A program made the translations under genes and the position numbers. From NCBI GenBank assembly GCA_964016885.1, contig OZ024754.1:37510001-37574000 (forward strand): 64,000 nucleotides of DNA, in the 5' to 3' direction. The DNA comes from Eledone cirrhosa. Lineage: Eukaryota. This document shows positions 9,311 to 61,695 of this stretch, in pieces. Position 1 is the first letter of the stretch, and each line of letters starts with the position of its first letter. The notes under the pieces were generated by a model. The model did no database searches, was not told the DNA's origin, and saw only the letters and a list, made by a program, of their open reading frames with translations.

Positions 9311-9366
9311 ACTGCCTGATGAGGTCATAGCTATTCAATGGCTATCATCGAAATATATATAGCAGT
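9311..9366 (+). ncRNA. Type I hammerhead ribozyme, family A, in TA-flanked cassette 9125-9411
   Basis: stem I ACTGC/GCAGT; CTGATGA; stem II atagctatt/aatggctat; GAAA-tatata-TA; AATAAA immediately downstream. Confidence 0.8.
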
Positions 9367-9676
9367 AAATAAAGGATTATGAGTTCATGCAATTGACTTA
9401 TGTTTCGTCACTATATATATATATATATATATAGAGAGAGAGAGAGAGAGAGAGAGAGAGGTGGGGAGAGAGAAATACATATACAAATACATACACAGAA
9501 TGTGTGACGAAAGAGCTTTGACAATATATAAACAACCTTCCGGTTATCGAACCAACCAAACAACCAGCCATCCAGAAATTTATAATAAATTGAAGTGAAA
9601 ATCAACAGACGCGGGTAGTTTTATTGGCAGCATGACCCTCCCAAAGAATAACAATGAGTATATATATATATATATA

Positions 9677-9956
9677 ATGAAGGAAATGTGGTAGGGAACC
9701 AGGTGGACCATAACGCACCAAAGTACTCAATACTTAGGGTAGTAGAGTGGGTAATAGGAACGAGTAGGACCCCGACGGCTGAGCTCAAGCCGTTTCGACG
9801 GCTAATTCTGTAGCCGTCGGAGTCCTACTCGTTCCTATATATATATATATAGGAAAATATTCATGAACATTTTCCTATTACCCACTCTATTACCGTAAGT
9901 ATTGAGTACTCTGCTGCGTTATGGTCTATCTGGTTCCTCACTACACTTCCTTCGTT
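9677..9956. mobile_element. TA-embedded cassette family C, two fragments
   Basis: aggaaatgtggtagggaaccaggtggaccataacgcacc... repeat with about 10 copies in the window, each abutting (TA)n. Confidence 0.75.
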
Positions 9957-10122
9957 ATATATATATATATATATATATATATATGTATATGTAGAAGTTC
10001 TATTTAAATTGTTGGGATACAACAAGCAAATATTTTTATAACTGATATAAAGCACTCAACAAATAATTGGAGTAAAAATACGATATATTAACAAATGGAA
10101 ACTATATTTATAAAACCATATT

Positions 10123-10187
10123 TATTTCATTATACATATTTCAAGGACACCAAGTTAAATTATGGTGTGCTTTCATCAGATAAAATA
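10123..10187 (-). ncRNA. Type I hammerhead ribozyme, family D
   Basis: reverse complement of the 12613-12677 motif. Confidence 0.75.
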
Positions 10188-10409
10188 TAATATAGAGCAG
10201 TTTTATAAATAAATATTGACATACCCTTAAAAAAATGCAACCATTACTGTTGGAAGCTCCCGGGACCTTCCAACAGTAGTGGTTGCACTCTTCAAGGGTA
10301 CGTCAATATTTATTTACAAATTTTGTAAAAATTTGGTAAAAATATGCAAGGGTCAGAGCACTCAGTCCGTAAGAAAAGTTTAGTATAAATAGTTACAACA
10401 GTGACATAA

Positions 10410-56419: not shown

Positions 56420-56605
56420 TAATTGTTTCTACTTTTGTCACAAGGCCAGCAATCATCCCAGTACATTACTGGTACTTTATTTTATCAACCCCGTAAGGAT
56501 GAAAGGCAAAGTTAATCTCAGCGGAATTTGAACTCATTCTATAAAGAGACATAACTCTATGCTGGAAAGCATGGCGTCCGACCCTCTAACAATACTGTCA
56601 ATCCA
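56420..56605 (-). mobile_element. Meta-type SINE
   Basis: full diverged copy. Confidence 0.8.
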
Positions 56606-58269
56606 ATATAATATAATAATAATATTATTAATATTCAATTTGTTTCCAAGCAAACAGCCTCACAACACCATGTGCTCTAGACGACTAATGTCATCATTTT
56701 GTTCCAGCAGTAGCAGGACAAATATTTTGAGATTATTGCCCCTTATCAAAATTGTACATCCCTCCCTTTTCTGTTACACCCTCGAACTTGTTTTTACAGC
56801 TGGCTTTGCCTAAAATTATAAACAAAATATATTTTCGCTCTAACATAACGGATATGTAAATGTATTTGTGAGTGGATAATGATAGTGTTATAATGATATA
56901 ATTAATATTCGATTCGTTTGTGCCAGCAAACAGCCTCATAACACCATCCTATTATATATATATATATATATATATATATATATATATATATATATATATA
57001 TATGTATATATATATATATATATATATGTATATATATATATATGTATATATGTATGTATATATATATATATATGTATATATATATGTATGTATATATATA
57101 CATATGTATATATATATGTATATATATATATGTATATATGTATATATATATGTATATATATATATGTATATATATATGTTGCCGTCCCACCCTTGCAAGC
57201 AGGGAAAAGTGGACGTAAAATGATGATGATGATGATGATATATATATGTATATATATGTATATATATATATATGTATATATATATATATATATATATATG
57301 TATATATATATGTATATATATATATATATATGTATATATACATATATATATGTGTATATATATATATGTATATATACATATATATATATATGTATATATA
57401 TATATGTGTATATATATATATATATATATGTATATATATATTTATATACCCTGAGTACTCTGGTGCGTTATGGTCCATCTGGTTCCTTACCACACTTCCT
57501 TCATTATATATATATATATATATATATATATATATATATATATATATATATATATATATACATATATATATATATATATATATATATATATATATATATA
57601 TAAGTGGTTCACCATACTGAGAACAATTGTTTCACCTTAGTGGATCCTCAGCAGGTACTGGTCCCTATATATATATATATATATATATATATATATATAT
57701 ATATATATATATATATATATTTAATATAGAAATGGCTTCTACAGGACTAGAACTGTTACCTTCAAAGGAAATCGTCAGGAAAGACCCGGTTGAACCTGGG
57801 ATACACAAATATATATATATATATATATATATGTGTGTGTGTATATGTATATATATATATATACATATGTATGTATGTATATATATATGTATGTATGCAT
57901 GTATATAAGTATGTGAGTGTATGTTTGTGTGTTTCCACATAATGAGATAATAAAACATCAGCCATTGTTTGAAGAATATGTTTATTCTGATTTGTAAACT
58001 GAAATTCACCCCTGAGGCATCCATTCATTGATCAATCGATATTATAATCTCCAACTAACCACAGAAGGAATTAATACCCAAATGAAGGACTTTCCAAATA
58101 CTAGCTCATATTTATCTTGAAGCATATTTATTCTTCGGTATCAGCTAACATTTAAACTGTTCAGTAAACATACCCGAGTGCACGACTTATCTCTTCAGTC
58201 ATGTTCACTAATCATGAAAGCACCGTGGTCAAATCGTTAAGAAATTGGCTTCACAATCTTTAGGGCTCT

Positions 58270-59012
58270 GGGTTAAATCTGACACATTACAGCGTAGACT
58301 GTGTGTTGTTTTTTTTTGTCATGACACCTACATGACCTCATTTATTTAGGACTGGATGTTGTGGTACCAACATAACTTTACAGCGAAAGGGGTTGTGTAG
58401 ATGGGGTGGGGGTAGGGGTAGTGGGATGGGCGTGTATTTTTGGTTAAGAGGTGCCTACTGACTGTAGGTTTCGCTTTGTACTTAGGCAAGGCGGGTCTTC
58501 TGTATTACTATGTAGCGCCAAAGATCTCGGTCCAATGACATTGTCGTGGAGAGGTGTAAGTGTGTAAAGTCGGAATGTCTGTTGAAATCACCTGCAATGA
58601 GTAGGAAGTCGTTATCATTAATTTGGGAGGTAGTGAGCATTAGGGGCTCATAGAACCTGTCTTTATGTATGTCTGGAAGTCCAGATTGAGGAGCATAGGT
58701 AGATATAATTGTCATGGTTGCACTGTTTAGTACAAGTCTAAGTTTAATTATTCTGTCATTTACTCTATTTACAGCAATAATTTTGATTACCCACTTTTCT
58801 GCTACCAAAATCCCTACTCCACCCAGCCCATTGTCATTCCCCACCCAGAAAAATTTGAAGCATTGTTTTTTTTTTATCAACGAGGAATCTGGCTGACATA
58901 CCTCTCCATCTAGTCTCTTGTACACAGAACACATCGACTTTCTTTCATTCAAGCACCTCTACTATCTCTCCAGATCTACCTTTCATAGTGCCAACACTGA
59001 TGGTGCCAACTC
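58270..59012 (-). mobile_element. Internally deleted RTE LINE: APE endonuclease fused to C-terminus and 3' UTR
   Basis: [57 protein letters not shown], then DRDLWRY..QKTR. Confidence 0.85.
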
Positions 59013-60430
59013 TGATATATATATGTGTGTGTGTGAGTATATATATGTATATATGTATATATATGTGTGTGTGAATGTGTGTGCGTGGGAATGTGTGTGT
59101 ATATATATATATATATATATATACATATATATATAAATACATACATATATATATACATACATATATATACATACATATATATACATACATATATATATAT
59201 ATATATACATACATTATATATATATATATACATATATATATTCATATATATATATACATATATATATATGTATATATATATATATGTATATATATACATA
59301 GATATATGTATGTATGTATATATATATATATATATATATATATATATATATATATATATATATATATATATATATATATATATAGCTCTGCTGTCGGGGT
59401 CATACTTTCTCCTATTACCCACTCTACTACCCTAAGTATTGAGTACTCTGGTGTGTTATGGTCCATCTGGTTCCTTACCACAACTCCTTCGTTATATATA
59501 TATATAAATATATTTATATATATAGATATACATATATGTATATATATATATATATATATATATATATATATATATATATATATATATATATATATATAAA
59601 TATATATATATATATATATATATATATATATATATATATATATGTGTGTATGTATATATATATATATATATATAAATATATATATATATATATATGTATA
59701 TATATATATATATATATAAATATATATATATATATATATATATATAAATATATATATATATATATATATATATATATATATATATATATATATATATATA
59801 TATATATATATATGCATACACTTCATTCCTTGTGTATGATTTAGTAAGTAATTTGAAAATTTCTTCTATACTTATTTTAAAAGTAGTGAATTTGATAGTC
59901 ATTATGTCACCAAAACAAGAATAAGAAAATCTGATTTGGTCTCAGCTTGCCATAATAGGAAACACACCACTTTAGCTGAATAATTTTTTTTTTTTTTGTC
60001 ATATCTTCTGCTAGATTTTTAATGTTGATTCAAATCTATGTTGATATGTATGTCTTTCCATTGCAATGCTACCATACAGTATCTCTAATTTAATAAGGGA
60101 CTGAAAGGTTTTCTTTTAAAAGTATTTTCAATGAAACTCCTCCCAATCTGATTACTAAATTGAACATAAAAATAAAAATACGATTCTGATAATTCCTAGC
60201 ATTCAAATCAGACGTTTACAAATTTTTACATTAAATATTGTTGTATATTTGTGATATTTTTTTTTCTCTTCATGCTCTCTGCTCTAGCTTCCCTGCTTTC
60301 TTTCATTGATTTAAGTCTATGTATCTATATATATATATATATATATATATATGAATAAAGTTAGTCCTTCATCAGTGATCTTCCAACCATCATTGGTATT
60401 TCATCGCTTTAAAGACCATATACATCCGGT

Positions 60431-61695
60431 TGGTGCGAGCAACGGCTAAAATATATATATATGTATGTATGTATATGTATATATCATATATATATATATA
60501 TGTGTGTGTGTGTCTGTGTGTGTATATACATGCATACATACATATATATATATATGATGATTTCTCCCAAAGGAAACAGTTCTAGTCCTGTAGAAGCCAT
60601 TTCTATATTAAATATTTATACTCTGCTATGTATTGAGTACCTTACTTACTGTGGTTACCCCCGATCGAACCCAGGGTAAACACACACACATATATATATA
60701 TATATATATATATATATATATATATATATATATATATATATATATATATATATATAATAAATATATATATATATATATTTATTAAAATAACAGATTAAAG
60801 TTTAATCTGTTATTTTAATAAATATTTGCTCTACGGTTCTTATATATTTGATATATATTTATCCTTATCGAGCCCTCTTTGGATTTTAGTCTTCAAATTT
60901 ATTATTATTACTCTATATATATATATATATATATATATATATATATATATATATATATATATATATATATATATATATATATATATATATATATATAAAA
61001 GGAATTACAACTTTGTCTGATTTACTCGTTCTATTTACAATCCTTTAAAATTATAATGATATTATAATGAAATAGTATGGTAGAATATTAAATATTAAAT
61101 GTTAATTGAACAAGTACTTTCATGCTTTCGCAATCTTCAGGTTCATATTCAGTGGTGACAGTCAAGTTGGCAATTGCTAACTTACTTGACTGTCACCACT
61201 GAATATGAACCTGAAGATTGCGAAAGCATGAAAGTACTTGTTCAATTAACATTTAATATTTAATATTCTACCATACTATTTCATTATAATATCATTATAA
61301 TTTTAAAGGATTGGAAATAAAACGAGTAAATCAGACAAAGTTGGAATTCCTTTTATTCATATATATATATATATAGAGAGAGAGAGAGAGTAATAATAAT
61401 AAATTTGAAGACTAAAATCCAAAGAGGGCTCGATAAGGATAAATATATATCAAATATATAAGAACCGTAGAGCAAATATTTATTAAAATAACAGATTAAA
61501 CTTTAATCTGAGAAATGGCTTCTACAGGACTAGAACTGTTTCCTTCGGGAGAAATCATCATATATATATATATATATGTATGTATGCATGTATATACACA
61601 CACACACACAGACACACACACACATATATATATATATATATGATATATACATATACATACATACATATATATATATTTTAGCCGTTGCTCGCACC
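60431..61695. repeat. Compound palindrome of about 1.26 kb built from four cassette families
   Basis: mirror-ordered inverted arms centred near 61175. Confidence 0.85.
61107..61244. ncRNA. Inverted pair of minimal hammerheads, family L (minus 61107-61145, plus 61206-61244)
   Basis: TGAAC-CTGAAGA-t tgc gaaa gca t-GAAA-gtac-TT-GTTCA. Confidence 0.8.

What the first reader, a model, noticed from the sequence alone, without database searches (positions are those of the whole stretch)
9311..61244. Unrelated HHR families converge on a palindromic stem III
Seen: the segment between GAAA and UH is self-complementary in different families: TATATA (A), CTTAAG (E), CAATTG (I), TGCGCA (K), GTAC (L), CTCGAG (28502), with loops ACTAGT (B) and GAGCTC (C). 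Known: minimal hammerheads with unstable stem III can cleave as dimers through palindromic pairing. Inference: selection for cleavage only in tandem or dimeric transcripts. Family A uses TATATA itself, the host microsatellite motif.
Basis: partly seen in the sequence, partly recalled or inferred. Interest (0 to 1): 0.7.

Follow-up and report, generated by a model that had tools for sequence, protein, structure and literature searches.

The report
Paired hammerhead ribozymes of Penelope transposons
The window is littered with end fragments of Penelope-type jumping genes carrying small RNA motifs of a self-cutting type; their self-complementary third stem is real and fits the long-published idea that such motifs likely work only in pairs, so this is a known feature rather than a new case of convergence.

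Summary
The listed words are in the window. The palindromes exceed chance: 18 of 28 hammerhead clusters against 3.2 expected, in a scan that ignored helix III symmetry. The motifs are type I hammerheads in terminal-repeat (pLTR) remnants of Penelope-like retrotransposons. One full element has a family L hammerhead on each side of its RT and GIY-YIG region. Short helix III is predicted unstable in one copy and stable between two. This is the double-hammerhead rule already in print (Perreault 2011; Cervera and de la Pena 2014).

- The families are not unrelated: A, C, I and K lie behind related Penelope-like proteins.
- Palindromy is not universal: one abundant family reads GAAC, another CC-nnn-GG.
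- B and C fold helix III as monomers.
- The 28502 copy and the 8 C copies listed lack half of the catalytic core.
- TATATA is not special to A: all larger families end at (TA)n.
- Most copies are solo or inverted, so selection likely acted on parent elements.

Cleavage was not tested. The scan noted the same thing on other DNA of this genome (e1-8664523).

The parts
9311..9366 (+). Family A type I hammerhead; core from 9316, helix III segment TATATA 9354-9359, predicted cut after 9361; 3' end of a 5'-truncated PLE copy inserted in (TA)n
   Evidence: 1392 genome candidates, the 40 scored are 98-100% identical; RT-like and GIY-YIG frames upstream in longer copies
10123..10187 (-).
12613..12677 (+). 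Second family D copy, core at 12621, segment TATGTA 12662-12667
10409..10526 (.). Family E back-to-back inverted pair: intact minus copy (core 10454, CTTAAG 10417-10422) and decayed plus copy (core 10481, TTTAAG)
   Evidence: CTTAAG 23, CTCGAG 3, CTTGAG 1 of 30 copies
10579..10683 (.). Family B back-to-back inverted pair (cores 10622 minus, 10640 plus), segment CAGTACTAGTCCTG, U-U at base of stem II; helix III of 4 bp forms in a monomer
12932..13249 (.). Family B inverted pair of the CAGTTCTAGTCCTG type (cores 12975 minus, 13206 plus)
28273..28321 (+). Family B solo copy, core 28278
28498..28513 (+). 3' half only of a hammerhead with segment CTCGAG (28502-28507); the 5' core is lost in this copy, which has a CA repeat upstream; longer copies elsewhere carry CCCG-CTGATGA about 90 nt upstream
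31919..31989 (+). Family K hammerhead, core 31927, segment TGCGCA 31974-31979
   Evidence: a PLE RT and GIY-YIG lie upstream of a K copy in L123
56128..56198 (-). Second family K copy, core 56190, segment TGCGCA 56138-56143
57614..57657 (-). Family I hammerhead, core 57651, segment CAATTG 57624-57629; stem I damaged in this copy
   Evidence: CAATTG in 25 of 26 copies
27113..27177 (+). Separate family that also uses CAATTG (27165-27170); core decayed here (CTGATAA at 27117) and stem II internally deleted
61107..61244 (.). Family L back-to-back inverted pair (cores 61140 minus, 61211 plus), segment GTAC; pLTR of a Poseidon/Penelope-like element
   Evidence: full element L209 with hammerheads at 2552 and 6758 flanking RT and GIY-YIG
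14745..14832 (.). Family C inverted pair of 3' halves (segment CGGCTTGAGCTCAGCCG); further half copies at 9776-9792, 12364-12380, 17147-17163, 17230-17246, 23744-23760 and 33995-34011; none has the 5' core; full copies use a TTGAnAA (U3-A8) core
19431..19473 (-). Non-palindromic exception: hammerhead with segment GAAC (core 19469); relatives at 37649 (minus, GAGC), 9513-9516 (plus, 3' half) and a sister family at 13529 (plus, GATT)
   Evidence: GAAC 20, GAGC 4, TAAC 1 of 25 copies; 264-273 bp behind a GIY-YIG in 3 loci
28786..28821 (-). Minimal hammerhead, core 28817; segment AG here, CG in 8 of 13 family copies
22009..22046 (-). U3-A8 core hammerhead, segment CTGG here, CCGG in another copy (L096)
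8064..8127 (+).

Best explanation
These are type I hammerhead motifs in leftover ends (pLTRs) of several Penelope-like retrotransposon families, and their short self-complementary helix III likely lets two copies in one tandem transcript of the parent element swap strands and cut as a double hammerhead, a constraint probably inherited from a common ancestor rather than reached by convergence. Shown: the motifs, the excess of palindromes, two-sided changes between related families (TATATA, TATGTA, TACGTA, TGCGCA; CTTAAG, CTTGAG, CTCGAG), the link to RT and GIY-YIG frames, and truncated, (TA)n-bound, solo or inverted copies. Predicted: helix III is unstable in one copy and stable between two. 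Inferred: cleavage in dimers, selection in the master elements, and that the window's own copies are inert remnants. Some lineages (B, C, CC-nnn-GG) have a helix III that can form alone.
For: Palindrome excess: 18 of 28 clusters against 3.2 expected; 25 of 28 with G-U against 5.6. Helix III hairpin +2.4 to +5.6 kcal/mol for A, E, I, K, L and 28502; the same segments as two-strand duplexes -3.2 to -10.7. Whole-motif folding: P(A15.1-U16.1) 0.00-0.02 alone and 0.42-0.97 between copies for A, E, I, K and L. Full element L209: two direct family L hammerheads 4206 bp apart around RT (PF00078, E 0.011, below cut-off) and GIY-YIG (PF01541, E 1.5e-5, above cut-off). Family A about 1.1 kb behind a GIY-YIG in several loci. 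K, C, I and GAAC also lie behind PLE frames. Direct tandem arrays exist: 466-bp CTAG trimer in L210 and 592-595-bp CTACGTAG arrays. Literature: PMC4209133 states the palindromic helix III and the dimer model and reports low activity of dimeric and trimeric constructs and none for the single motif; PMC3088659 Fig. S8 legend; PMC6765202.
Against: No cleavage was measured. Only 4 of 120 scanned hits have a same-strand family partner within 5 kb; 79 are solo and 37 inverted (10-kb pieces undercount tandems). The GAAC family is abundant and PLE-linked yet not palindromic, and its helix III formed neither alone nor in the dimer in the model (P 0.00). Family D also scored low in the dimer (0.03). Links of K and I to PLE frames rest on one clear locus each, C on one or two. 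Cofolding forces a dimer and ignores concentration and tertiary contacts. In an anole PLE the hammerhead cut only with the element's protein present, was not needed for insertion in vitro, and no RNA-seq ends were found at the cut site (PMC11167929).
Confidence: 0.8

Rival explanations
1. Convergence: unrelated ribozyme families independently evolved palindromic helix III so that only multimeric transcripts are cut.
For: A and L sit on distant PLE clades (GIY-YIG 32% over only 28 residues). The words differ in length (2 to 10 nt) and sequence. Lineages with long helix III (B, C) lie among those with short ones, so switches have happened. A review calls convergence versus descent an open debate (PMC6466107).
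Against: K is alignable with family D. A, C, I, K and CC-nnn-GG are carried by related PLE proteins. Palindromic positions 15.2-16.2 and loop 3 are a general trait of metazoan PLE hammerheads. No tree with ancestral states was built here.
Confidence: 0.12
2. The palindrome serves pairing between two separate RNAs, or protein-assisted folding in the element's RNP, rather than cutting of a tandem transcript in cis; cutting may be incidental to transposition.
For: The anole PLE hammerhead needs the element's protein and its cleavage is dispensable in vitro; the protein is predicted to be a dimer. Back-to-back inverted copies are common here (37 of 120). B and C keep a central palindrome although stable as monomers.
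Against: Full elements and arrays do place two copies on one strand. Catalytic core letters are kept across families, which implies selection on cleavage. Inverted 5'-truncated copies are a known PLE insertion product (PMC8557442).
Confidence: 0.2
3. Each family uses its own palindrome as a code that prevents cross-family pairing.
For: At least 12 different strict palindromic words of 4 or 6 nt occur.
Against: Words are reused: CAATTG is the leading or tied word in 4 clusters, TATATA leads 3, CTAG 2, and CTCGAG occurs in both E and the 28502 family. Any two different palindromes mismatch anyway, and the dimer also swaps stem I, which would set specificity by itself.
Confidence: 0.05
4. Chance or base-composition artefact of an AT-rich, microsatellite-rich genome.
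For: TATATA is common in this genome, and helix III ends must pair anyway.
Against: The test conditioned on the paired ends and used genome base composition; GC-rich words (TGCGCA, CTCGAG, CGATCG) are included; shuffled and reversed controls gave 0 of 2 and 0 of 8 palindromes.
Confidence: 0.02

Closest known systems
PLE-associated type I and minimal hammerheads with small palindromic helix III (Cervera and de la Pena 2014, PMC4209133, parts 1-2 of 4 read; Lunse, Weinberg and Breaker 2017, not held, seen only as a title and through reviews PMC6765202 and PMC6466107)
   Same: Type I topology in pLTRs, short palindromic helix III, extra nucleotide after A9 in several families, U3-A8 core variant, many sequence families per genome, mostly solo truncated copies and close opposite-strand pairs, dimer model.
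   Different: New sequence families from a genome for which two paper searches listed no dedicated description; helix III segments from 2 to 17 nt within one genome; an abundant non-palindromic GAAC family; long stem II (50-95 nt) in several families.
Repeat-type eukaryotic hammerheads of Perreault et al. 2011 (PMC3088659; passages and Fig. S8 legend seen, figure itself not seen)
   Same: [quoted passage not shown]
   Different: That survey did not, in the passages seen, tie them to Penelope-like elements.
Metazoan non-LTR retrozymes (PMC7229834, passages read; bioRxiv 10.64898/2026.07.22.740005, part 1 of 5 read)
   Same: Type I hammerheads in short repeats; axolotl motifs have a palindromic tetraloop, a U-U at the base of helix II and cut better as dimers; tandem arrays of 466 and about 595 bp occur in this genome.
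   Different: The window's own copies are not tandem arrays. Most invertebrate retrozyme hammerheads were reported to cut efficiently as monomers.
Double hammerheads of avocado sunblotch viroid and newt satellite 2 (Forster et al. 1988; seen only as cited)
   Same: Unstable helix III rescued by pairing of two copies.
   Different: Those are replicating RNAs or satellite transcripts; here the motifs are retrotransposon ends.

Membership tests
Type I hammerhead ribozyme | Core CUGANGA...GAAA...UH with three helices, open at stem I | tested here: met
   22 of 34 window motifs have both core halves (three with variant or decayed 5' core); 12 are 3' halves only
Type I hammerhead ribozyme | Match to an Rfam hammerhead model | tested here: inconclusive
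   None among the 150 listed of 325 matches, which were microsatellite-driven miRNA and similar hits; 175 weaker rows were not shown
Type I hammerhead ribozyme | Site-specific self-cleavage 3' of H17 | not testable with these tools
   needs an in vitro assay
PLE pLTR hammerheads | Hammerhead in a direct terminal repeat flanking an RT plus GIY-YIG frame | tested here: met
   Family L in L209 on both sides; A downstream in several loci; K, C, I and GAAC downstream in 1-3 loci; not shown for B, E or 28502
PLE pLTR hammerheads | 5'-truncated copies, inverted partner at the 5' end, (TA)n target bias | tested here: met
   described in PMC8557442
Dimer-type (double) hammerheads | Short, palindromic helix III unstable as a hairpin | tested here: met
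   A, E, I, K, L and 28502
Dimer-type (double) hammerheads | Same feature in families B and C | tested here: not met
   Helix III of 4 and 6 bp is stable alone (-1.4 and -7.1 kcal/mol)
Dimer-type (double) hammerheads | Faster cleavage as dimer than as monomer | not testable with these tools
   needs an in vitro assay
Non-LTR retrozyme | Head-to-tail tandem units each with a full hammerhead | tested here: not met
   No such array in the window; one lies about 10 kb beyond it (L210)
Non-LTR retrozyme | Abundant linear and circular RNA | not testable with these tools
   no RNA data were available to lay on these sequences

The most novel reading that the evidence does not exclude
Within one genome, Penelope lineages have repeatedly switched between obligate-dimer and monomer-competent hammerheads, including an abundant family that replaces the palindrome with a GAAC/GAGC loop on a single A-U pair (a GANC-like tetraloop; name recalled, only search listings seen). 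Because the cut strand in a dimer needs only the 3' half, the very many half-ribozyme remnants (89 of 97 family C copies lack the 5' core) could be cut in trans by RNA of active elements, giving the element a way to cleave host transcripts that read through its old copies.
Probability: 0.07. Interest if true: 0.65.

Novelty: already known. Interest (0 to 1): 0.2.

Why it matters
As stated, the finding rediscovers a published rule, so it matters little by itself. Its use is as a natural mutation series. One genome holds two-sided palindrome variants (TATATA, TACGTA, TGCGCA; CTTAAG, CTTGAG, CTCGAG), monomer-capable relatives (B, C, CC-nnn-GG) and a non-palindromic outlier (GAAC), several tied to identifiable Penelope proteins. 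That set could test why Penelope elements keep weak hammerheads and whether the dimer requirement is ancestral.

Tried and rejected
Rfam scan: swamped by microsatellite-driven miRNA matches, with no hammerhead among the 150 listed rows. Whole-window repeat finder: only (TA)n. Genome DNA searches with the GAAC family and with K returned nothing, probably because the search skips very common words; their copies were counted in fetched stretches instead. Sequencing-run search with the full family L element: no RNA holder listed, which is no evidence on expression; no reads were laid. PDB search with A's RT frame: no match; Pfam did not recognise the RT frames of L053 and L054, so their RT label rests on motifs and on mutual similarity. 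No PLE protein match inside the window at E 1e-5. Rejected: a family-specific palindrome code (words reused); a link between A's TATATA and the (TA)n target. Lunse et al. 2017 was not held. Supplementary figures of PMC4209133 and PMC3088659 were not opened and may list some of the same words.
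Full report
Setting. The window is G000:C14:37510001-37574000 of a 3.0-Gb animal genome. It is AT-rich and full of (TA)n runs. Motif scans found type I hammerhead cores on both strands. A final inventory lists 34 motifs: 22 have both halves of the catalytic core and 12 only the 3' half (the 27117 core).

Observation. There are three qualifications. First, the 28502 copy has lost its 5' core; longer copies elsewhere carry CCCG-CTGATGA about 90 nt upstream. Second, family C (CGGCTTGAGCTCAGCCG) is a real hammerhead family with a U3-A8 core, but only 8 of 97 copies examined keep the 5' core, and none of the 8 window copies does. 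Third, B's ACTAGT is the minority form; CAGTTCTAGTCCTG is commoner (21 against 4 exact matches).

Chance. I fetched 112 blind-picked 10-kb stretches (20 of them flank the window). I scanned them with rules that fix the register by stem I and stem II and ignore helix III symmetry. This gave 120 hits in these stretches plus the window, against 2 in shuffled and 8 in reversed sequence, none of the controls palindromic. All 289 hits, including those in targeted loci, fell into 47 clusters. Of these, 28 have a 4- or 6-nt segment whose ends pair; 19 were left out for other lengths or unpaired ends. The inside of the segment is strictly palindromic in 18 of 28 (3.2 expected, P 7e-12) and in 25 of 28 with G-U allowed (5.6 expected). 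By distinct words it is 12 of 20 (2.45 expected, P 1.5e-7). A separate scan for U3-A8 cores added CCGG, CGGCTG, CTACGTAG and CAAGGCCTTG, with 0 hits in shuffled sequence. Related families show two-sided changes: TATATA, TATGTA, TACGTA and TGCGCA share a TTTTAT/ATAAAA stem I. Family E has CTTAAG 23, CTCGAG 3 and CTTGAG 1 among 30 copies.

Exceptions. A CC-nnn-GG group has a free three-base loop (CCACTGG, CCTCTGG, CCGCCGG, CCTTTGG). B and C have 4- and 6-bp helices that are stable alone.

What carries them. Family A is young and abundant: 1392 candidates, and the 40 scored are 98-100% identical. Most of the 30 fetched copies share one 3' end followed by (TA)n, and they are cut short at different 5' points. 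Longer copies have a GIY-YIG frame (PF01541, E 0.004, below cut-off) and an RT-like frame upstream. Family L flanks a whole element: hammerheads at L209:2552 and 6758 around RT (PF00078, E 0.011) and GIY-YIG (PF01541, E 1.5e-5). K (L123), C (L214), I (L168), GAAC (three loci) and CC-nnn-GG (L117) also lie behind such frames. No link was shown for B, E or 28502. These are the pseudo-LTRs of Penelope-like elements, for which 5' truncation, inverted 5' partners and microsatellite targets are described (PMC8557442, passages). The window itself holds no PLE protein match, only ends.

Unrelated? K aligns with the TATGTA family over stem I, the stem II base and the 3' flank. The GIY-YIG domains behind A, C, I and CC-nnn-GG are 29-43% identical over about 100 residues, and K's element RT is 49% identical to A's. 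L and GAAC belong to a more distant group. The ribozymes therefore travel with related elements, and a shared, inherited need for symmetry with turnover of the letters is simpler than convergence. This is an inference: no tree with ancestral states was built, and the K and I links rest on one clear locus each.

Mechanism. In whole-motif folding the A15.1-U16.1 pair has probability 0.00-0.02 alone and 0.42-0.97 between two copies for A, E, I, K and L. For five of the eleven motifs folded (A, E, B, L and full-length C) the best dimer fold is the strand-swapped double hammerhead; K and I pair helix III but not the expected stem I. D (0.03), GAAC (0.00) and the mutated minimal copy (0.00) did not form it. 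These are nearest-neighbour predictions without tertiary contacts or concentration. Where would dimers arise? Of 120 hits, 79 are solo, 37 inverted and 4 direct within 5 kb (tandems are undercounted in 10-kb pieces). In the window the close pairs (E, B twice, L, C twice) are back-to-back, so one copy is antisense to the other and cannot be its dimer partner. Two same-strand B pairs lie 2.4-2.6 kb apart, but are of different subtypes and look like separate insertions. Selection thus likely acted on parent elements and arrays such as L209 and the 466-bp trimer in L210, not on these remnants.

TATATA. (TA)4 or longer follows within 250 nt of the cut site in 34 of 34 A copies. It also follows in 18 of 18 K, 14 of 14 I, 23 of 24 L, 19 of 21 E, 11 of 11 B and 10 of 11 GAAC copies, against 586 of 2240 random places. 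The target preference is general and separate from the helix III word.

Known. Cervera and de la Pena 2014 (PMC4209133, parts 1-2 of 4 read) describe the short helix III with palindromic loop, the dimer model, PLE pLTRs, opposite-strand pairs and the U3-A8 variant. They report no activity for a single minimal motif and low activity for dimers and trimers. Perreault 2011 (Fig. S8 legend) notes the palindromes across ribozymes. Two reviews (passages) repeat the rule and cite Lunse 2017, which I could not read. Against a simple role in transposition: an anole PLE hammerhead cut only with protein and was dispensable in vitro (PMC11167929, passages). Two searches listed no paper devoted to hammerheads of cephalopods, which this genome resembles by my recollection only.

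Verdict. 'Unrelated', 'converge', 'only in dimers' (for B and C) and the microsatellite link are not supported. Interest 0.2.

Noticed in passing
window 19431-19473 (-), 37611-37653 (-), 9496-9522 (+), 13529-13566 (+): Abundant PLE-linked hammerhead family with non-palindromic GAAC/GAGC helix III segment on a single A-U pair; neither monomer nor dimer helix III forms in the model.
   Followed up: partly
window 9776-9802, 14750-14828, 17147-17248, 23734-23762, 33995-34021; L045, L079, L214: Family C uses a U3-A8 core (TTGAnAA); 89 of 97 copies lack the 5' core, many broken inside stem II and joined to an inverted copy.
   Followed up: partly
L210:1179-2747 (G000:C14, about 10 kb past the window end): 466-bp tandem trimer plus an inverted copy of a CTAG hammerhead repeat, retrozyme-like.
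   Followed up: partly
L120:2380-2975, L126:636-2274: 592-595-bp tandem arrays with a U3-A8 hammerhead and CTACGTAG helix III.
   Followed up: no
L209:2552-6758: Near-complete Poseidon/Penelope-like element with frameshifts, two direct pLTRs and a partial third unit.
   Followed up: partly
window 10622, 10640, 57651, 61140, 61211; L210: Families B, I, L and the CTAG family share a U-U pair at the base of a very short stem II, as in axolotl HHR_Amex2.
   Followed up: no
window 10454 (-): Family E has a one-base insertion in the core (CTGAATGA), kept in most copies.
   Followed up: no
L010/L053, L123, L214, L117: In the PLE clade of A, K, C and CC-nnn-GG the hammerhead lies 1.1-1.3 kb behind the GIY-YIG; in A this spacer holds a long TA/TG-rich microsatellite carried by the element itself.
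   Followed up: no
window 10775-12343: 1.57-kb (TA)n run with regularly spaced CA interruptions between clusters of PLE ends.
   Followed up: no
window 58482-58958 (-): Open frame that looks like a LINE apurinic-endonuclease fragment by its motifs (label recalled, not tested).
   Followed up: no
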